DNA of 64,000 nucleotides, from assembly GCA_947426455.1 (NCBI GenBank), contig CANEEC010000002.1, positions 15,430 through 79,429 on the forward strand, given 5' to 3'. The notes under the pieces were generated by a model. The model made no database searches, had not been told where the DNA came from, and saw nothing but the letters and a program-made list of their open reading frames with translations. Below, piece by piece: positions 3,592-41,409 of the stretch. The stretch comes from an uncultured Clostridia bacterium (GTDB taxonomy: Bacteria > Bacillota > Clostridia > Peptostreptococcales > Anaerovoracaceae). Every line of letters begins with the position of its first letter. Position 1 is the stretch's first letter. Made by a program: the position numbers and the translations under genes.

Positions 3592-4758
3592 TTGGACATC
3601 AAACGCGAAGTCAAAGAGCTGGAGCAGGACATGATTACGCTCCGCCGCAAGTTTCACAGACACCCTGAACTGGGTCTTCACGAGGTGTGGACCTCCGGTG
3701 TCATCGAAGGTTATTTAAAGGATTTGGGACTGGAGGTTCGCCGCTGTATGCAAACCGGCATCATCGGCGTATTGAAAGGCGACCATCCGGGAAAGACCAT
3801 CCTGCTGCGCTGCGACATTGACGCTCTGCCTGTGGAAGAAGAAACCGGTCTTCCCTTTGCCTCGGAGTATCCCGGAACAATGCACGCCTGCGGTCACGAC
3901 GGCCACATGGCTCTGCATCTGACCACTGCCCGATTGCTGGCCAGGCATCGTGATGAGCTTCACGGAACGGTGGTCTTTTTATTTCAGCCTAACGAAGAAG
4001 ATGCGGGAGCCGAATTGATGATTCAGGCCGGCGCACTGGAAAATCCCAAACCGGACGCTGTCTGCGGATTTCACCTGTGGTCGCCCCTTCCCACCGGAAC
4101 CATCGGACTGATCCCCGGGCCTATCATGGCCTCCAGCTACTATTTCAAGCTGACCATTCACGGCCATCCCGGTCACGGAGGCGCGCCCCATACCGCCGTC
4201 AATCCCATCGACGCGGCGGGTCACGTATTGACCGCCATCAAAACGCTTCATACGCTGGAACTGGATTCCACCAAACCCACGGTCATCTCCGTCTGTAAAA
4301 TCCACAGCGGCATCAAGGAAATCACCGTGCCGGAAACTCTGGAAATGGAAGGCTCCATTCGATGCCTTCACGATGGAGATCAGGCTGTCCGAGACCGTTT
4401 CCGCCAGCTTTGCACAGCGGTTTGCGCCGCCTATCGCTGCACCTGCGATATCGAGTTCAAATGCGGAAACTCTCTGCTGAGCAACGATAAGGCCATGACC
4501 AGATTGGCCAGAAGCGCTGCCGAAAACGTGGTAGGTCAGGAAAACATCCTCACCGACAATATCAGCGTCATGTTAGGCGATGACTTCGCGGAATTTTCCA
4601 ACCGCATCCCCGGCGTTTATTACTTCATCGGAACCCGCAGTGAAGAGGCGGGAAGCGTCTATGAACACCACCATCCCCGCTTTGTGATAGACGAAGCGTC
4701 GCTTGCCATCGGCGTACAGATGCAGGCGGAAATGGTCATGCGCTATCTCAATGAATAA
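3592..4758 (+). CDS. M20 family amidohydrolase (N-acyl-L-amino acid amidohydrolase / hippurate hydrolase type)
   Basis: 388 aa. The N-terminus LRRKFHRHPELGLHE and the MHACGHDGH metal-binding motif are typical of the family. The apparent start codon is TTG. Confidence 0.85.
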   Translation: MDIKREVKELEQDMITLRRKFHRHPELGLHEVWTSGVIEGYLKDLGLEVRRCMQTGIIGVLKGDHPGKTILLRCDIDALPVEEETGLPFASEYPGTMHACGHDGHMALHLTTARLLARHRDELHGTVVFLFQPNEEDAGAELMIQAGALENPKPDAVCGFHLWSPLPTGTIGLIPGPIMASSYYFKLTIHGHPGHGGAPHTAVNPIDAAGHVLTAIKTLHTLELDSTKPTVISVCKIHSGIKEITVPETLEMEGSIRCLHDGDQAVRDRFRQLCTAVCAAYRCTCDIEFKCGNSLLSNDKAMTRLARSAAENVVGQENILTDNISVMLGDDFAEFSNRIPGVYYFIGTRSEEAGSVYEHHHPRFVIDEASLAIGVQMQAEMVMRYLNE

Positions 4759-35696: not shown

Positions 35697-36019
35697 CTTC
35701 TTTCCTTTTGGTAATGTGTATGTCGATTCCCCGGGACTGAATCACCGCGGGATCTTTGGGCAAATTTTTCATAAAACATGCTATTCAATAATAGCACAAT
35801 CACTTTCTTACCGCAAGTTCTTTTTTTGTTTTTGTCCGGTCTTTTTGGGAATTGGCACAAATTGGCGTAAAATCAGCGCAAATTTGCTCTAATAAATTAT
35901 TTTGATGATTTAATCCAAACAATGTATTTTATTTTTTGAAGAAAATGCAGTATGATAAAAAGAAAGAATTGTCTATGGTTATCAATGGTATTTATGAATA
36001 TAAACAGGAGGACAAACCA

Positions 36020-37192
36020 ATGAACATTCAGGAAGCATCTTTAAAGTTCCACGAACAGCTGCGCGGTAAGATCGAAGTCAAGGGAAAGGCTCCGGTGAAA
36101 AACGCCGACGACCTGTCTTTGGCCTACACCCCCGGCGTGGCCGAACCCTGCCGCCACATCGCAAAGAATAAAGACGACGTTTACAAGTATACCGGCAAAG
36201 GCAACATGGTTGCCGTGGTCACCGACGGTTCCGCCGTCTTAGGCCTAGGCAACATCGGTCCCGAAGCCGGCATGCCGGTCATGGAAGGAAAATGCGTTCT
36301 GTTCAAAGAATTTGCGGGCGTTAACGCTTTTCCCATCTGCGTCGCTTCTCAGGACGTAGAGGATATCATCCACACCGTCAAGATGATCGCTCCCAGCTTC
36401 GGCGGAATCAATTTGGAGGACATCGGTTCCCCCCGCTGCGCGGAAGTGGAGCGCCGCCTGAAAAAAGAACTGGATATTCCCGTATTCCACGACGACCAGC
36501 ACGGAACCGCCATCGTGGTCACCGCCGGCCTGATCAACGCTCTGCGGGTGGTGGGCAAGGAATGGAAGGACGTTACCGTGGCCATGAGCGGCGCGGGAGC
36601 CGCCGGTTCTGCCATCGCCAGAATGCTTTTGAACATGGGCGTAAAAGACATCTTCTGCTGCTCCAGCAAGGGCATCTTAAACCGCAAGGAAACCTATTCT
36701 AACTGGGTACACCAGGAAATCGCCGAGCTGACCAATAAGGAAGGCCGCACCGGCGGCATGGCGGAAGCCATCCGCGGAACGGACATCTTCGTAGGCGTAT
36801 CCGTCAAAGACGTGGTGACCAAAGAGATGGTGCAAACCATGGCGAGGGACGCCATCGTCATCCCCATGGCCAACCCCGATCCCGAAATTCAGCCGGATGT
36901 GGCAAAAGCCGCAGGCGCAAGAGTGGTAGGCACCGGCCGCTCCGACCATCCCAACCAGATCAACAACGTATTGGCATTTCCCGGCGTGTTCCGCGGCGCA
37001 TTGGACGCCAAGGCCAGCGACATCAACGAGGAAATGAAGGTGGCCGCCGCAAAAGCCATCGCTTCTCTGGTTTCCGACGAAGAGCTGTCTGAGGATTACA
37101 TCATCGTTCCGCCCTTTGACGCCCGCGTCGGCGAAACCGTAGCCAAAGCTGTCTACCAGGCAGCCATCGATAGCGGCGTAGCGCGGATTTAA
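36020..37192 (+). CDS. NAD(P)-dependent malic enzyme (short form)
   Basis: [28 protein letters not shown], and GGINLEDI match the family. The ATG at 36020 is preceded by AGGAGGA. Confidence 0.9.
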
Positions 37193-37303
37193 CGGATTTG
37201 GCGGATTTGGCGGCGCAATCCCCGCTTGCAGGACTGCCGCAGTGTTGAATGTAATGCGCATTTTCTATGCGCTGCTTGCTCCGTCACAACAAACACGTTC
37301 CAA

Positions 37304-37360
37304 CAAAAAAGGGCATTGCTCATCATTGGAATCGATGATCTGGCAACGCCCTTTTATTTT
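37304..37360. terminator. bidirectional terminator between the malic enzyme gene and the Ltp-like gene
   Basis: GGGCATTGC...GCAACGCCC is flanked by A6 and T-runs. Confidence 0.6.
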
Positions 37361-37375
37361 TGCTTTTCTTTTCTT

Positions 37376-37969
37376 TTATTCCAAATGGTCGATGGCATAC
37401 TGCGCTTCTTCTGCTGTAAATTTCTCTCCGTATTCAGAAGTTAGCTGGTCATAAATTGCCGACGGCGACATACTCATCATATCCTGATAGACTTTTGCTT
37501 TTTCCAGTGCATTGGCGTTCCAATCTGCCTCGAGATGTTCCATCGCGTACTGTGCGGCTTCTGCGCTGAATTTTTCACCGTATTCGGAAGTTAGCTGATC
37601 ATAAATCCCAGCTTTGGACATATGCATATCATCACTATAAATCTTGGCTTTACGGAGAGCAGATTTGTACTCAGCAGGAATTGACGCGTCATTCTTCGAG
37701 CTATCTGTATTTTCTGCATTGGTATCGCTTCCTTGAGTGGTTTCGGTGGAAACAGAAGTATTGAGGTCGCTATTAGAATTGCCGCTCTCATCGCTGCCGC
37801 CATTACCACCGATCGCGCCAATAACTATAATGATAATTAAAATAATAAACCATGCCCTTTGATAAAAAGGTTTCTTATTCTTCGCTCCGCAAGATGGACA
37901 TATCTTTGCCTTTGCTGATATCGAAGCGTTACAATTCTTGCATACCGTCATTTTAGGAGTTTTGGACAT
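37376..37969 (-). CDS. zinc-ribbon, TM and 2x Ltp-repeat (host cell surface-exposed lipoprotein family) protein
   Basis: The N-terminus has CKNC...CPSC, followed by the TM segment WFIILIIIIVIGAIG. Two repeats follow with A.KA.[IV]Y...M.MS..[GA]IYDQLTSEYGEKF[ST]AE.AQYA[MI].HLE. Confidence 0.7.
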   Translation of the reverse strand: MSKTPKMTVCKNCNASISAKAKICPSCGAKNKKPFYQRAWFIILIIIIVIGAIGGNGGSDESGNSNSDLNTSVSTETTQGSDTNAENTDSSKNDASIPAEYKSALRKAKIYSDDMHMSKAGIYDQLTSEYGEKFSAEAAQYAMEHLEADWNANALEKAKVYQDMMSMSPSAIYDQLTSEYGEKFTAEEAQYAIDHLE

Positions 37970-37996
37970 ATCATTTTCCTCTCTTTCTCTTTCGCG

Positions 37997-38980
37997 CTAC
38001 CTGCCTAAGATCTGTTTCTTTTCTTCATCAAATTCTTCCTGCGTTAAAATCCCCTCATCGAGCAGTGATTTCAATTCCCTTAATTGCTCTATTTTGCTTT
38101 TTTCAGCCTGTTTCGGCCGAGCAGAAATGTTTTGTATTCCCTGCGCCATCGTATTTCCCAATGCCACTCCCGCTCCTAATCCTGCCAACCCTCCCTTTTG
38201 CTTAGAAGCCTCCATCATAGCACGAGCCGTCTGATACTGCATAAAAGAGTCCATGTCCTGTTTGGCCATTCCTATGCCCGACTGTTCATCGATCAGTCTT
38301 TCCACTTCGTCCGGCAGGGAAACGTTTTCTACAAGGACATCGCTAAACTGAATGCCTATCGTCCGTGCCTGTTCATTGAGTTTTGCCTGTATCATACCAG
38401 AAAGCTTCCGGTATTCCGTAGCTAAATCAAGAACGGACATTGTTGTTTCTCCCACCGTTATGGAAAAAGCTTCCGTGACCATGGAAGACAGATAGTCAAC
38501 AATATCGTAGGTCATTACAATCCCTTTTGTCCCAAATATCTCTCTCATAAAAACAGGGACATCTGTGATCCGAAAAGCAAATTTTCCAAATGCCCGAATA
38601 CGAACCATGTTAAAATCGCTATCCCGCTTCATAATAGGATTTTTCGTCGCCCACTTATTGTCAATAAATTGCCTTGTACTTACAAAATACAGATCGGCGA
38701 TAACAGGAGAAACGAACAAATACGGAAATGCTTTTAAAGTAGAAAGTACCGGAAAATTTTCTGTTCTCAAAGAATAAGTCCCCGGCGGAAGTATATCTGC
38801 AAGTTGTCCGCCTTTCAGGAAAACCGCGCTCTGACTTTCTCTGACGATCACTTTTGACCCTTGCTTTAGTTCGTTATTTCCACTTTCCCTTTGAAATTTT
38901 GCAACAATCAACTTGTTATTCTTGTCCTCATATTCTATGACATCAAGAAATTGATCTTTTACCACATCAAGTAATCCCAT
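37997..38980 (-). CDS. SPFH-domain protein (YdjI/COG4260-like) with a C-terminal SHOCT domain
   Basis: MGLLDVVKDQFLDVIEYEDKNNKLIVAKF... is typical of the YdjI-like family. The C-terminal KIEQLRELKSLLDEGILTQEEFDEEKKQILGR is a SHOCT motif. The ATG at 38980 has an AGAGGAAG RBS. Confidence 0.7.
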   Translation of the reverse strand: MGLLDVVKDQFLDVIEYEDKNNKLIVAKFQRESGNNELKQGSKVIVRESQSAVFLKGGQLADILPPGTYSLRTENFPVLSTLKAFPYLFVSPVIADLYFVSTRQFIDNKWATKNPIMKRDSDFNMVRIRAFGKFAFRITDVPVFMREIFGTKGIVMTYDIVDYLSSMVTEAFSITVGETTMSVLDLATEYRKLSGMIQAKLNEQARTIGIQFSDVLVENVSLPDEVERLIDEQSGIGMAKQDMDSFMQYQTARAMMEASKQKGGLAGLGAGVALGNTMAQGIQNISARPKQAEKSKIEQLRELKSLLDEGILTQEEFDEEKKQILGR

Positions 38981-38993
38981 ATTCTTCCTCTTA

Positions 38994-39386
38994 TTACTGC
39001 CGTAAAGGCAATCCGAAGTCGTCTTCGAACGAACCCATTGCAATGAAAATGATATCAACAAGCCAACCGATACCACAGATACCTATCGTAAACAAATAGA
39101 GGATACCTGTGCCTATCTTCCCTACATAAAACCGATGCGCTCCTGCCCAGCCCAAAAAGATGCATAAAAGAAGCGCCGTAACTTTACTTTTCCTGCTGAT
39201 GCCTGGCATAACTCCCATGTTATTGATCGGCTGAGGGTTCATACTCATCTGTTGTACGGTTTGAAGCTGCTGCGAGACATCGTTTGTATATGCTGTCGGC
39301 TCGGGCTGTTTATTTGCAACATATCCGCAATAGCCGCAGCCTTCATTTTCCATCGGTGCTCCACACATCGGGCATTTTGTTTCCAT
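38994..39386 (-). CDS. zinc-ribbon plus TM2-domain membrane protein
   Basis: It has CPMCGAPMENEGCGYCGY. The TM2 signature is ALLLCIFLGWAGAHRFYVGKIGTGILYLFT..GIGWLVDIIFI. Confidence 0.75.
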   Translation of the reverse strand: METKCPMCGAPMENEGCGYCGYVANKQPEPTAYTNDVSQQLQTVQQMSMNPQPINNMGVMPGISRKSKVTALLLCIFLGWAGAHRFYVGKIGTGILYLFTIGICGIGWLVDIIFIAMGSFEDDFGLPLRQ

Positions 39387-39420
39387 ATCTGACCTTCCCT
39401 CCCATCAAATTTATTTATTA

Positions 39421-39561
39421 AAAGGTGTACCTTTGAAAACTTCAAACTATCTTGATTGGCGAGATGATTTTTTGCTAAAAAACCTTGAAATTTGCGATTT
39501 TTTGAAGTAAAATAAATTATGTATATACCATAGTGCCAAATTTGTAAAGGTACACCTTTGC
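39421..39561. mobile_element. candidate invertible DNA switch (inverton): 113-bp segment bounded by 14-bp inverted crossover-like sites
   Basis: AAAGGT-GT-ACCTTT is at 39421..39434 and AAAGGT-AC-ACCTTT is at 39548..39561. The switch is adjacent to a small serine recombinase gene. The left site lies only 34 nt upstream of the TM2 gene ATG. Confidence 0.55.
39485..39513 (+). promoter_or_regulatory. sigma-A-like promoter inside the invertible segment, currently facing away from the TM2/SPFH/Ltp operon
   Basis: TTGAAA (39485..39490), a 17-nt spacer, then TAAAAT (39508..39513). Confidence 0.5.
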
Positions 39562-39564
39562 AAA

Positions 39565-40283
<719 letters not shown>

Positions 40284-40317
40284 GTTTTATTTTCTCAACC
40301 TTATCCAGCAAATGTTA

Positions 40318-41409
40318 TTACAGCTTCAACCCCTTGCGGATCTTGATCATGAAGTCCTGCACGTTGGTCACGATGCTCTTGGCGGCCAGACTTCCCCGGT
40401 CGCCCAGCTTGTTCACGGCAAACTCGGAGATATCCACGGTGTAGAAGTAGACGGGACGCACCGTCTTGTCCGCAAGCACCCGATAGGTGGGCGTCATGTT
40501 GCCGGTGGCGATGGTGTGAAGCATGGAGGCCATGCAGATTACCGTAGTGGCCTTTCGCACACAGTTGCGCATGGCGTCCTGACCGCGGTACACGTCGGCA
40601 TACACCTCCGGCATGGGACCGTCGTCGCGGATGGAACCGGTGAGAACCAGCGGAATGTTGTTCTTAATACAGCTGTAGACGATGCCGTTATCGATGCCTT
40701 CTTCCTCAATGAACCGTTCCATGGAACCGTAGCTGCGAACCTTGTTCAGCGTATCGATGTGATTGTAGTGCCCGTTGCTCATCAACCTCTGCGTGCGGAT
40801 GTCCTGCCCTAAAGCCGTGCCCAGATAGGCTCCTTCCAGATCATGGGTGGCCAGCGCATTGCCCGCTAAAACTGCGTCCACATAGCCGTTTTCCACCAGC
40901 TTGGAAAAGGCTTTTCTCGCGGAAGCGTCGAAGGTGCAGGCAGGTCCCATGACCCAAACCACATAGCCGTTTTCTTTTTCATGGCGCAAAAGATCCTGCA
41001 AAAACCGATAATCCGCAGAAAACGCCGTCTCTCTGGAACGCTTCTGTCGGAATAAAAAGACGTTCTCCGATTCGTTTCCGCTGCCGGCAAACCCATCTGC
41101 ATAGACCAAAATTCCGTCCTCGCCGTTTTCCGTGCGGCCGCAGGCCACCAGATCGCCCCGCTTCAGGTTGCGAAATTCTTTCACCTCGATTCGCCCGTCC
41201 TTCCACACGGCCACGCAGTCCATGCGGCTTTCCTCCGCCAAAACCCATGCGCCGTCGATTTTATAATACTCCGGAAAAATACTGGTGGCATGATAACCCT
41301 CCGGCGCTACGAAGTCCATTTCCGCCGCTTTCCAAACGGCGTCGGGAGCGCTTGCCAATCGTTTCTCTGTAAAATCCGGCGCTTTGTATTTTGTCAACTG
41401 AAATTCCAT
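40318..41409 (-). CDS. TIGR00300-like protein (LOR/SDH bifunctional-enzyme conserved region; possible ornithine-cyclodeaminase-type enzyme)
   Basis: 363 aa. The family was recalled from motifs such as VVWVMGPACTFDASAR..., AVLAGNALATHDLE, and LVLTGSIRDDGPMPEV. The assignment comes from memory only. Confidence 0.4.
   Translation of the reverse strand: MEFQLTKYKAPDFTEKRLASAPDAVWKAAEMDFVAPEGYHATSIFPEYYKIDGAWVLAEESRMDCVAVWKDGRIEVKEFRNLKRGDLVACGRTENGEDGILVYADGFAGSGNESENVFLFRQKRSRETAFSADYRFLQDLLRHEKENGYVVWVMGPACTFDASARKAFSKLVENGYVDAVLAGNALATHDLEGAYLGTALGQDIRTQRLMSNGHYNHIDTLNKVRSYGSMERFIEEEGIDNGIVYSCIKNNIPLVLTGSIRDDGPMPEVYADVYRGQDAMRNCVRKATTVICMASMLHTIATGNMTPTYRVLADKTVRPVYFYTVDISEFAVNKLGDRGSLAAKSIVTNVQDFMIKIRKGLKL

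What the first reader, a model, noticed from the sequence alone, without database searches (positions are those of the whole stretch)
37376..39386. Uncharacterised three-gene membrane module (Zn-ribbon-TM2, SPFH-SHOCT, Zn-ribbon-TM-2xLtp) on an AT-rich islet
- The operon downstream of the putative switch has three genes.
  - A 130-aa protein with an N-terminal CxxC...CxxC ribbon and a TM2 domain (GAHRFYVGK).
  - A 327-aa SPFH protein of the YdjI/COG4260 type, with a SHOCT oligomerisation tail in place of the family's usual C-terminal Zn-ribbon.
  - A 197-aa protein with a Zn-ribbon, one TM segment, an S/N/D-rich linker and two Ltp repeats.
- Established knowledge: Ltp of the Streptococcus thermophilus phage TP-J34 is a surface lipoprotein that mediates superinfection exclusion. 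B. subtilis YdjI belongs to the ydjFGHI (PspA) membrane-stress locus and helps localise PspA.
- From memory, I am not aware of a described system combining these three parts under phase-variable control.
- The islet (about 37.37 to 40.24 kb) is clearly more AT-rich than its surroundings. My spot count of line 38641..38700 gives 23/60 G+C, against about 38/60 in a core line such as 4141..4200. This suggests horizontal acquisition.
- Inference: this may be a phase-variable envelope module for phage exclusion or membrane-stress scaffolding, with no PspA partner in the window.
Basis: partly seen in the sequence, partly recalled or inferred. Interest (0 to 1): 0.65.

Follow-up and report, generated by a model that had tools for sequence, protein, structure and literature searches.

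The report
Phase-variable SPFH membrane operon with Ltp
A small, horizontally acquired operon that a DNA-flipping switch turns on and off encodes a membrane scaffold plus a surface protein resembling a known phage-blocking protein; the same operon recurs in many gut bacteria and I found no description of it, but its function has not been tested.

Summary
On the minus strand lie three tightly packed genes:
- a Zn-ribbon-TM2 protein (39386..38994);
- a soluble Band_7_1 SPFH protein with a SHOCT tail (38980..37997);
- a Zn-ribbon-TM protein with two Ltp repeats (37969..37376).

They sit on a 2,959-bp AT-rich islet (37360..40318; GC 0.43 against 0.53).

The triad is not a chance neighbourhood. In 39 species-representative genomes, TM2 lies directly upstream of the SPFH gene in 38. 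A third gene with the same conserved Zn-ribbon-TM anchor follows in about 27. Its outer domain varies: DUF6591, Ltp or an OB fold.

Phase variation is shown directly. The 111-nt promoter segment between the inverted repeats occurs in both orientations in independent assemblies of this same cassette (9 OFF, 1 ON). Two sister cassette lineages also show both orientations. The window is OFF.

Conspecific strains carry HicAB plus an AAA_14/DUF4143 ATPase in the same slot.

Function is inferred. The most likely reading is a membrane-tethered SPFH platform that displays an Ltp-type phage-exclusion domain. A PspA-independent envelope-stress role is the main rival. There was no PADLOC match, no defence-island enrichment and almost no phage carriage. 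No description turned up in the literature searched. I rate it a new variant of known kinds.

The parts
37360..40318 (.). Strain-variable AT-rich islet that carries the whole cassette (recombinase, switch and three genes)
   Evidence: Conspecific contigs L094, L095 and L098 align at 97-99% identity up to 40319 and from 37359 onward. Between those points they carry HicB/HicA + AAA_14/DUF4143 instead. Islet GC is 0.426 against 0.526.
39565..40182 (-). Small serine recombinase (DNA invertase), 205 aa from the GTG start
   Evidence: Pfam Resolvase E=5.5e-28. PHROG 125 'DNA invertase' E=7.5e-52. Called as 205 aa in L104, L105, L109 and L111. It is 58-76% identical to the recombinases of the sister cassettes.
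39546..39559 (.). Recombinase-proximal inversion site core. It reads AAAGGT-GT-ACCTTT on the operon strand and lies within the 30-nt inverted-repeat arm 39530-39559.
   Evidence: Inverted repeat I1. These are the only two occurrences in the window; 0.18 expected by chance.
39435..39545 (.). 111-nt invertible segment, OFF orientation in the window
   Evidence: It is identical in L093, L104, L105, L109, L110 and L112. L106, L108 and L111 differ by one T. L107 carries its exact reverse complement.
39485..39513 (+). Promoter-like site TTGAAA-17-TAAAAT inside the invertible segment. In the window it points away from the operon, towards the 3' end of the recombinase gene.
   Evidence: Consensus scan, 10 of 12 matches. 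In L107 the same site faces the TM2 gene, about 85 nt upstream of its ATG. Promoter activity has not been tested.
39421..39434 (.). Operon-proximal inversion site core, within inverted-repeat arm 39421-39450
38994..39386 (-). Gene 1: Zn-ribbon + TM2-domain membrane protein, 130 aa
   Evidence: Pfam TM2 E=2.3e-22. The CxxC...CxxC motif and the GxHRFY motif are conserved across 41 orthologues. It lies directly upstream of the SPFH gene in 38 of 39 genomes.
37997..38980 (-). Gene 2: soluble SPFH (Band_7_1) protein with a Gly-rich segment and a SHOCT tail, 327 aa
   Evidence: Band_7_1 E=1e-69 and SHOCT E=2.6e-8. No TM segment. More than 6,400 homologues; the best 120 all show Band_7_1, and 119 of them also SHOCT.
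37376..37969 (-). Gene 3: Zn-ribbon - TM - acidic linker - 2 x Ltp repeat, 197 aa, predicted N-in/C-out
   Evidence: Ltp x2 E=8.4e-52. Match to 4eqq E=1.6e-22. PHROG 4980 'superinfection exclusion' E=4.2e-65. The N-terminal 38 residues have pI 10, the Ltp region has pI 4.6, and there is no lipobox. The anchor is conserved in 30 loci.
37302..37360 (.). GC-rich hairpin (18-nt arms) followed by a T-run after gene 3. It probably acts as a bidirectional terminator shared with the convergent malic-enzyme gene. It lies in the conserved flank.
   Evidence: Inverted repeat I5, the sequence itself and its conservation in L094.

Best explanation
The locus is a mobile accessory operon.

**Conserved core (shown by co-occurrence).** The core is a Zn-ribbon-TM2 membrane protein plus a soluble Band_7_1 SPFH protein with a SHOCT tail. 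A third, exchangeable gene uses a conserved cytoplasmic Zn-ribbon + single-TM anchor to place a variable domain outside the membrane. In this genome that domain is two acidic Ltp repeats.

**Expression (inversion shown, promoter inferred).** A Hin-like serine invertase flips a 111-nt segment between two AAAGGT-GT-ACCTTT sites. The segment carries a promoter-like site. The window is in the OFF state.

**Assembly (inferred).** The SPFH protein has no membrane anchor of its own, like B. subtilis YdjI/SamI. I infer that it is recruited to the inner face of the membrane by the TM2 protein and oligomerises there into a platform. The Zn-ribbon anchor of gene 3 would dock on that platform.

**Function (inferred).** In ON cells the Ltp repeats on the outer face would block DNA injection by tailed phages, as Ltp of phage TP-J34 is thought to do through the tape-measure protein. 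Switching would spread the cost and the benefit across the population.
For: **Domains and topology.**

**Operon compactness.** The intergenic gaps are 13 and 27 nt, each with a ribosome-binding site, and a hairpin terminator follows gene 3.

**Co-occurrence.**
- TM2 lies upstream of the SPFH gene in 38 of 39 species-representative genomes.
- An anchor-bearing third gene follows in about 27 of the 39.
- Starting instead from the anchor, 46 of 72 metagenome loci with enough upstream DNA have the SPFH gene directly upstream.
- The anchor is conserved (invariant C10, C13, C24 and G28; C27 nearly so) while the outer domain changes between DUF6591, Ltp, tRNA_anti-like OB, DUF4352 and DUF5067.

**Inversion.**
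- This cassette: 9 assemblies OFF and 1 ON, the ON copy being an exact reverse complement.
- The L010-type and L015-type cassettes also occur in both orientations.

**Recruitment precedent.** YdjI/SamI is soluble and needs the co-operonic membrane proteins YdjG and YdjH (PMC8581546; bioRxiv 10.64898/2026.02.06.704340). Distant SHOCT-tailed Band_7_1 genes are followed by a multi-Zn-ribbon protein.

**Pointers to phage exclusion.**
- Homology to Ltp, with the acidic pI that family shows (PMC3952083; PMC5137146).
- A temperate-phage-like contig carries TM2-SPFH-TM-DUF6591 between its replication and packaging genes.
- The chromosomal slot is alternatively occupied by HicAB + AAA_14/DUF4143.
- C. 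difficile CwpV is a precedent for phase-variable Sie-like protection (PMC4737114).
Against: - No experiment bears on the function.
- There is no PADLOC match for any of the three proteins.
- Flanking genes are heterogeneous housekeeping genes with no defence enrichment.
- Only 2 of 2.9 million viral contigs carry the module, and no close phage or plasmid copy was found.
- Most orthologous operons carry DUF6591 or no third gene rather than Ltp, so the core pair must have a function that does not depend on Ltp.
- About a fifth of loci have a MerR-type regulator upstream, which suggests stress induction.
- 36% of anchor-bearing genes lie without an adjacent SPFH gene.
- No physical interaction among the three proteins was tested. 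The AlphaFold model was unusable (mean pLDDT 49).
- The Zn ribbons of genes 1 and 3 share no significant similarity beyond the CxxC pattern.
- Promoter activity is inferred from a consensus match only.
Confidence: 0.45

Rival explanations
1. It is an envelope-stress or membrane-maintenance module that works like B. subtilis YdjGHI/SamGHI without PspA. The membrane proteins would sense envelope perturbation through the extracellular domain of gene 3. The SPFH scaffold would then stabilise or signal at the membrane. Phage exclusion would not be its role.
For: - The SPFH protein is of the same Pfam family type (Band_7_1, soluble) as YdjI. It lies with Zn-ribbon and TM partners, as in ydjGHI.
- A MerR-type regulator lies directly upstream in 8 of 39 loci.
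- The TM2-SPFH core occurs without any third gene in about a third of loci.
- Flanks are mostly housekeeping genes.
Against:
- The partners are not YdjG/YdjH-like. No TPM domain was detected, and TM2 stands in their place.
- The islet varies between strains, was horizontally acquired and is kept OFF in most assemblies. That is odd for a housekeeping stress system.
- The Ltp domain has a documented anti-phage role.
Confidence: 0.25
2. It is a phase-variable surface-display module for interaction with the host or with other bacteria. The Ltp, DUF6591 or OB domain would serve as an adhesin or ligand-binding head. Switching would serve colonisation or immune evasion.
For: - Invertons in gut bacteria mostly control surface structures (abstract of PMC11892184).
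- The Ltp domain of pneumococcal CbpL sits in a non-lipoprotein surface protein implicated in infection (PMC5137146).
- The outer domains are exchangeable while the anchor is constant.
Against: - A membrane-proximal domain on a linker of about 37 residues is unlikely to reach beyond a Gram-positive wall (inference).
- This reading gives no role to the conserved cytoplasmic SPFH and TM2 pair.
- No adhesin-type repeats or wall anchors are present.
Confidence: 0.15
3. It is an abortive-infection or toxin-like system. The TM2 hairpin protein would be a latent membrane-permeabilising effector. The SPFH cage would hold it in check until a phage cue sensed by gene 3 releases it.
For: - TM2-domain proteins occur in nine PHROG families of unknown function.
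- Expression is kept OFF in most assemblies, which fits a costly product.
- The same slot holds a toxin-antitoxin pair in other strains.
Against: - No evidence of toxicity exists.
- Many loci appear to lack a switch or any recognised regulator.
- TM2 has no similarity to known effectors.
- The idea is purely speculative.
Confidence: 0.07
4. The three genes are unrelated neighbours that happen to sit together on an islet.
For: 36% of anchor-bearing genes occur without an adjacent SPFH gene. The third gene is absent from about a third of SPFH loci.
Against: - TM2-SPFH adjacency holds in 38 of 39 genomes across Clostridia, Erysipelotrichia, Atopobiaceae and Flexilinea, in unrelated flanks.
- Gene order, strand and short gaps are the same throughout.
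- 64% of anchor genes lie directly after an SPFH gene.
Confidence: 0.02

Closest known systems
B. subtilis PspA-YdjGHI (SamGHI) membrane-stress operon
   Same: - The SPFH protein is soluble, with a low-complexity or Gly-rich segment after the SPFH domain.
- It is encoded with Zn-ribbon- and TM-containing partner proteins.
- In B. subtilis those partners recruit it to the membrane (PMC8581546; bioRxiv 10.64898/2026.02.06.704340).
- That YdjI belongs to Pfam Band_7_1 is my recollection and was not tested here.
   Different: - There is no PspA.
- The partners are a Zn-ribbon-TM2 protein and a Zn-ribbon-TM-ectodomain protein, not YdjG (2 Zn ribbons + NTF2-like + TM) or YdjH (TPM domain).
- The tail is SHOCT rather than a Zn ribbon.
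- Control is by a DNA inversion switch or MerR rather than sigma-W.
- The locus is a mobile, strain-variable islet.
Ltp superinfection-exclusion lipoprotein of S. thermophilus phage TP-J34 (PDB 4eqq)
   Same: It has two acidic Ltp (HTH-like) repeats outside the membrane, E=1.6e-22 over both repeats. It is anchored in the membrane at its N-terminus.
   Different: - The anchor is a cytoplasmic Zn ribbon plus a TM helix. There is no signal peptide or lipobox.
- In the window it is encoded on a chromosomal islet, not a prophage.
- It is co-operonic with TM2 and SPFH genes.
- Exclusion activity has not been tested.
C. difficile CwpV, a phase-variable Sie-like anti-phage surface protein
   Same: - It is host-encoded.
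- It is switched ON and OFF by inversion of a DNA element upstream of the gene.
- Its outward-facing C-terminal domains vary between strains.
- It is proposed to block phage DNA entry (PMC4737114).
   Different: - There is no sequence relationship.
- CwpV is a wall-anchored S-layer-type protein. From memory, it is switched by a tyrosine recombinase (RecV) acting on a leader or terminator element.
- Here a serine invertase flips a promoter, and the product is a three-protein membrane module.
SPFH-NfeD operons (stomatin/flotillin with NfeD/YuaF/YqeZ)
   Same: An SPFH scaffold gene is paired in an operon with a small membrane-protein partner, and the pair spreads by lateral transfer (PMC2636767).
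   Different: The partner is TM2, not NfeD. The SPFH protein is itself soluble, whereas 10 of the 12 prokaryotic SPFH subfamilies in that study have an N-terminal TM region.
Hin/Gin-type invertible promoter switches and gut invertons
   Same: - A small serine invertase lies next to a short segment bounded by inverted repeats.
- Each repeat has palindromic half-sites around an asymmetric central dinucleotide.
- The segment carries a promoter-like site.
- Both orientations are found in natural populations.
   Different: The regulated cargo (TM2/SPFH/Ltp) was not found in the inverton literature I could search. Any need for an enhancer or Fis is unknown.

Membership tests
SPFH superfamily, Band_7_1 subfamily (PF13421; the YdjI/SamI type) | Full-length match to the Band_7_1 profile | tested here: met
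   E=1e-69, profile positions 6-209 of 211. The score is lower than for distant relatives (1e-87 to 1e-104), so this is a divergent clade.
SPFH superfamily, Band_7_1 subfamily (PF13421; the YdjI/SamI type) | No intrinsic membrane anchor (soluble SPFH) | tested here: met
   Maximum 19-residue Kyte-Doolittle score is 1.39, below the 1.6 threshold.
SPFH superfamily, Band_7_1 subfamily (PF13421; the YdjI/SamI type) | C-terminal Zn-ribbon, as in YdjI | tested here: not met
   The tail is SHOCT (E=2.6e-8). Family tails vary among GYF_2, Zn ribbon and SHOCT.
PspA-YdjGHI / SamGHI system | PspA (ESCRT-III-like) gene in the operon | tested here: not met
   The operon holds only the three genes.
PspA-YdjGHI / SamGHI system | YdjG-like (double Zn ribbon + NTF2-like + TM) and YdjH-like (TPM domain) partners | tested here: not met
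   Pfam finds TM2 in gene 1 and Zn ribbon + Ltp in gene 3, with no TPM domain. Direct comparison with the YdjG and YdjH sequences was not possible.
PspA-YdjGHI / SamGHI system | Membrane partners recruit the SPFH protein | not testable with these tools
   This needs localisation or interaction experiments. The single-chain AlphaFold model had mean pLDDT 49.
Ltp-type superinfection-exclusion proteins (PF07553) | Two tandem Ltp (HTH-like) repeats | tested here: met
   Two stretches match, E=8.4e-52. Residues 95-196 align to both repeats of 4eqq.
Ltp-type superinfection-exclusion proteins (PF07553) | Acidic repeat region | tested here: met
   The Ltp region has pI 4.60, with 19 D+E against 9 K+R. 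The criterion comes from PMC5137146.
Ltp-type superinfection-exclusion proteins (PF07553) | Lipoprotein signal peptide with a lipobox Cys | tested here: not met
   No [LVI][ASTVI][GAS]C motif is present. The N-terminus is a basic Zn ribbon followed by a TM helix.
Ltp-type superinfection-exclusion proteins (PF07553) | Encoded by a prophage and expressed in the lysogen | tested here: not met
   The islet holds only the recombinase and the three genes, between housekeeping genes. One related phage-like contig exists (L103).
Ltp-type superinfection-exclusion proteins (PF07553) | Blocks phage DNA injection | not testable with these tools
   Needs phage challenge experiments.
TM2 domain family (PF05154) | Two-helix hairpin with the conserved G-x-H-R-F-Y motif | tested here: met
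   E=2.3e-22, profile positions 2-51 of 51. The motif is conserved in 41 orthologues.
Serine-invertase invertible promoter switch | Small serine recombinase adjacent to the switch | tested here: met
   Resolvase E=5.5e-28 and PHROG 'DNA invertase' E=7.5e-52.
Serine-invertase invertible promoter switch | Inverted repeats bounding a short segment | tested here: met
   30-nt arms, 80% complementary. The 14-nt cores occur only at these two places in 64 kb; 0.18 expected by chance.
Serine-invertase invertible promoter switch | Both orientations present in natural populations | tested here: met
   L107 is ON, while nine other assemblies and the window are OFF. Sister cassettes also show both states.
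Serine-invertase invertible promoter switch | The segment carries the operon's promoter | tested here: inconclusive
   There is a consensus match, TTGAAA-17-TAAAAT. Analogous sites lie in the sister switches: TTGAAA-17-TATACT and TGGAAA-17-TATAAT, the latter with an extended -10. No transcript data are available.
Known anti-phage defence systems (PADLOC-DB v2) | Match to any component model | tested here: not met
   None of the three proteins has a match at E<=0.01.
Defence-island resident | Flanks enriched in defence genes | tested here: not met
   Of 119 flanking ORFs from 39 genomes, only generic HTH hits and three single defence-like hits were found. In the window's species, however, the same slot alternates with HicAB + AAA_14/DUF4143.
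SPFH-NfeD operon | NfeD partner gene | tested here: not met
   No NfeD domain in genes 1 or 3.

The most novel reading that the evidence does not exclude
The TM2 / SPFH-SHOCT / Zn-ribbon-TM-X triad may be a previously unrecognised, widespread class of modular trans-membrane platform in gut Firmicutes. A cytoplasmic SPFH assembly tethered by TM2 would dock interchangeable Zn-ribbon-anchored surface heads (Ltp, DUF6591, OB fold, DUF4352). The heads would act as phase-variable or MerR-induced barriers to phage genome entry. That would make it an SPFH-organised superinfection-exclusion system that is host-encoded and horizontally mobile.
Probability: 0.25. Interest if true: 0.75.

Novelty: new variant of a known kind. 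Interest (0 to 1): 0.55.

Why it matters
- **Soluble SPFH proteins.** Soluble bacterial SPFH proteins are poorly understood, and B. subtilis YdjI/SamI is the one member characterised in the papers I read. This operon offers a second, simpler and very widespread context. The SPFH protein has more than 6,400 homologues, and its clade is 65-91% identical across at least three phyla. It has a defined membrane partner (TM2, a domain of unknown function in bacteria) and a natural genetic ON/OFF switch that makes phenotypes easy to test.
- **Phage defence.** If the Ltp version excludes phages, it would be a host-encoded, phase-variable form of a prophage defence. It would also link SPFH microdomains to phage entry.
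- **DUF6591.** The swappable heads would then give a handle on DUF6591, the commonest head in this survey.
- **If not.** Otherwise it is still a clean example of an inverton-controlled accessory islet in gut Clostridia.

Tried and rejected
1. **AlphaFold2 of the SPFH-SHOCT protein.** Mean pLDDT was 49, so no fold search was run.
2. **The search for homologous proteins with the 60-aa anchor.** The word index returned only 3 hits, so the search was wasted. The exhaustive representative search replaced it.
3. **Metagenome scan for either junction of the window's switch.** It found 0 matches. The ON copy came instead from an exact-protein look-up.
4. **Phage and plasmid collections.** Only distant SPFH hits (under 34% identity) turned up, so I rejected the idea that the module is typically phage- or plasmid-borne.
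5. **Rfam scan of 36500-41000.** Nothing found.
6. **Similarity between the Zn ribbons of genes 1 and 3.** Not significant, although PHROG 10292 matches both.
7. **Inverton papers.** The text-held supplements of one paper mention neither SPFH nor TM2, and the other paper has no supplements held as text.
8. **Direct repeats or target duplications at the islet borders.** None is evident. How the islet inserted is unresolved.


Full report
**1. What is in the sequence**

Between a malic-enzyme gene (35936..37192, +) and an ArgZ-like gene (41409..40318, -) lie four minus-strand genes.
- A small serine recombinase, 40182..39565 (Resolvase E=5.5e-28; PHROG 'DNA invertase' E=7.5e-52).
- A 130-aa protein, 39386..38994, with an N-terminal CxxC...CxxC ribbon and a TM2 domain (E=2.3e-22).
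- A 327-aa protein, 38980..37997, with a full-length Band_7_1 SPFH domain (E=1e-69) and a SHOCT tail (E=2.6e-8).
- A 197-aa protein, 37969..37376, with a Zn ribbon, one TM helix, an acidic S/N/D linker and two Ltp repeats (E=8.4e-52).

The last three genes are separated by 13 and 27 nt, each gap holding a ribosome-binding site. A GC-rich hairpin with a T-run follows them. The SPFH protein has no hydrophobic segment.

Gene 3 has a basic N-terminus (pI 10), a TM helix at residues 39-57 and an acidic Ltp region (pI 4.6). It has no lipobox. This predicts an N-in/C-out orientation with the Ltp repeats outside the membrane. Residues 95-196 align to both repeats of the TP-J34 Ltp crystal structure 4eqq (E=1.6e-22).

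The 359-aa ORF in the mechanical list is an upstream GTG extension; all 120 best homologues are 325-334 aa long.

**2. The islet**

The ArgZ-like protein is encoded identically on 22 public contigs. In the eight shown, the slot next to that gene holds HicB (HicA too in some) and, where the contig reaches that far, an AAA_14/DUF4143 ATPase. In the three contigs I aligned, the DNA is 97-99% identical to the window up to 40319 and again from 37359.

The cassette islet is therefore 37360..40318 (2,959 bp). Its GC is 0.426 against 0.526 for the rest of the window. Other windows of that size have sd 0.024 and minimum 0.466.

In one other assembly that carries the cassette (L093), the islet differs from the window by 5 substitutions and one 14-bp deletion. 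The adjacent malic-enzyme flank is only about 96% identical. This fits recent acquisition. No terminal repeats were seen at the borders.

**3. Is the triad real?**

The SPFH-SHOCT protein has more than 6,400 homologues. The best 120 are at least 79% identical. All show Band_7_1, and all but one also show SHOCT.

A scan of one genome per species returned 39 loci with 65-91% identical SPFH proteins. They come from Oscillospiraceae, Lachnospiraceae, Erysipelotrichaceae, Atopobiaceae and Flexilinea. DNA homology to the window is confined to the cassette. In those 39 loci:
- a Zn-ribbon-TM2 gene lies directly upstream in 38;
- a third gene follows in about 27, with a conserved N-terminus of the form M.K.PK..C.NC...CP.CGAKNKKP.YK..WF plus a TM helix;
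- the outer domain of that third gene is DUF6591 in 18, Ltp x2 or x3 in 7, and a tRNA_anti-like OB fold in one.

Conservation is graded. SPFH is 65-91% identical to the window's, TM2 44-63% (full-length matches) and the anchor 45-76%.

I then tested the association from the other side. The 60-residue anchor matches 1,315 representative clusters. Among the best 150, the attached domains are DUF6591 (29), tRNA_anti-like (23), Ltp (14), DUF4352 (11) and DUF5067 (7). Of 72 metagenome loci found through the anchor and having at least 1 kb upstream, 46 have the SPFH gene directly upstream and 26 do not.

The conserved core is therefore the TM2 + SPFH-SHOCT pair. Gene 3 is a frequent but exchangeable third member. 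Distant Band_7_1 homologues (39-46% identical, other phyla) have no TM2 neighbour. Their tails are GYF_2, Zn ribbon or SHOCT. The SHOCT-tailed ones I inspected are followed by a multi-Zn-ribbon protein that recalls YdjG.

**4. Regulation**

The recombinase gene and gene 1 are separated by 30-nt inverted repeats. Their cores read AAAGGT-GT-ACCTTT, that is, palindromic arms around an asymmetric centre. These are the only two copies in 64 kb. They bound a 111-nt segment holding a promoter-like site, TTGAAA-17-TAAAAT. In the window that site points away from the operon, so the window is OFF.

Ten independent assemblies encode the identical TM2 protein. Nine have the window's orientation. One (L107) has the exact reverse complement, which places the promoter-like site about 85 nt upstream of the TM2 ATG. 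Two OFF assemblies (L108, L111) have run accessions close to L107's, suggesting the same study, and share its single-base variant.

Two sister cassette lineages also occur in both orientations:
- L009 and L010 are ON, while L011 and L012 are OFF;
- L136, L138, L147 and L182 are ON, while L140-L144, L151 and L159 are OFF.

Inversion is thus shown directly. Promoter activity is inferred.

The switch accompanies only part of the family: 6 of 39 genomes, and 16 of the 46 SPFH-positive metagenome loci. In 8 of 39 genomes a MerR-type regulator lies directly upstream on the same strand instead.

**5. What it probably does**

The following facts are shown or rest on the literature.
- The SPFH protein is soluble.
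- YdjI/SamI of B. subtilis is also soluble and depends on the co-operonic membrane proteins YdjG and YdjH for membrane localisation (PMC8581546; bioRxiv 10.64898/2026.02.06.704340).
- Ltp of TP-J34 sits outside the membrane and is thought to block DNA injection through the tape-measure protein (PMC3952083; PMC4737114).
- CwpV of C. difficile shows that a phase-variable, host-encoded, Sie-like barrier exists in Clostridia.

From these I infer three steps.
- TM2 tethers an SPFH assembly to the inner face of the membrane.
- The Zn-ribbon anchor of gene 3 docks to that assembly.
- In ON cells the Ltp repeats hinder phage genome entry.

Other hints support the phage reading. A temperate-phage-like contig carries TM2-SPFH-TM-DUF6591 between its replication and packaging genes. 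In this species the slot alternates with a toxin-antitoxin pair plus an ATPase.

Several results count against it.
- There is no PADLOC match.
- Flanks show no defence enrichment.
- Only 2 of 2.9 million viral contigs carry the module, and no close phage or plasmid copy was found.
- Ltp is the minority head.
- The MerR association suggests stress induction.

I put 0.45 on the phage-exclusion platform, 0.25 on a PspA-independent envelope-stress role and 0.15 on a surface-interaction role. An abortive-infection reading gets 0.07 and chance adjacency 0.02.

**6. Comparison with known systems**

The module works like a YdjGHI-type SPFH recruitment system, but it fails that system's membership tests: no PspA, no YdjG/YdjH-type partners and no Zn-ribbon tail.

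Gene 3 belongs to the Ltp domain family but not to the lipoprotein, prophage-encoded Sie class. It has no lipobox and does not lie on a prophage.

The switch meets every sequence-level criterion of a serine-invertase inverton.

The SHOCT paper reports Band_7_1 as the commonest SHOCT partner and did not find oligomerisation.

Literature searches for TM2 with SPFH, SHOCT, DUF6591 or invertons found no description of this operon. NCBIfam has no model for genes 1 or 2.

**7. Verdict**

This is a real, recurrent and, as far as I could find, undescribed operon made of known parts. Phase variation is directly evidenced; function is untested. I rate it a new variant of known kinds, with moderate interest.

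Noticed in passing
window 37360-40318 compared with L094-L101 (for example L094:7092-9463): Conspecific strains carry a different AT-rich insert in exactly the same slot: 2,372 bp, GC 0.41, with HicB/HicA toxin-antitoxin genes plus an AAA_14/DUF4143 ATPase. The intergenic site between the ArgZ-like and malic-enzyme genes is therefore a hotspot for accessory cargo.
   Followed up: partly
L093 (equivalent to window 40125-40138): One assembly of the same cassette has a 14-bp deletion near the 5' end of the recombinase gene, which is a frameshift. Its switch is OFF, so it may be a naturally locked-OFF variant.
   Followed up: partly
L009:4743-5174 and L014:2541-2729: Two sister cassettes look locked ON. 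L009 has a truncated recombinase with the switch ON. L014 lacks about 41 bp including the operon-proximal inverted repeat, with the promoter facing the operon. An assembly artefact is not excluded.
   Followed up: no
window 39485-39513 (+): In the OFF state the promoter-like site points into the 3' end of the recombinase gene. It could produce antisense RNA to the invertase and so feed back on switching. This is untested.
   Followed up: no
L023:4990-5433, L031-L033, L035, L036, L040, L047 and several metagenome loci (for example L114, L160): A MerR-family regulator lies directly upstream of many DUF6591-type operons, on the same strand. In some metagenome loci a MerR-type gene lies on the same contig as an anchor-DUF6591 gene that has no TM2-SPFH upstream. 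The regulator, core and head therefore look combinatorial.
   Followed up: partly
L103:7607-10032: A temperate-phage-like IMG/VR contig has an integrase, a repressor, SSB, replication genes, HNH, ParB, a methylase and a terminase. Between its replication and packaging genes it carries TM2 - SPFH (56% identical) - TM-DUF6591, in the manner of a moron.
   Followed up: partly
L070:7040-8146, L082:7141-8307, L077:6997-8130: SHOCT-tailed Band_7_1 genes of Bacteroidota and Armatimonadota are followed by a protein of about 370-390 aa with several CxxC pairs. This recalls YdjG and suggests a general partnership between Band_7_1 and Zn-ribbon proteins.
   Followed up: partly
P0053 (447 aa): One database protein fuses TM2 with Band_7_1 and SHOCT in a single ORF. 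It may be a gene-call or frameshift artefact, or a natural fusion. Either way it agrees with the two acting together.
   Followed up: no
L041:4807-5583: One locus has an additional protein with a Big_2 domain and three Ltp repeats just upstream of TM2, and an OB-fold (tRNA_anti-like) head on the anchor gene downstream.
   Followed up: no
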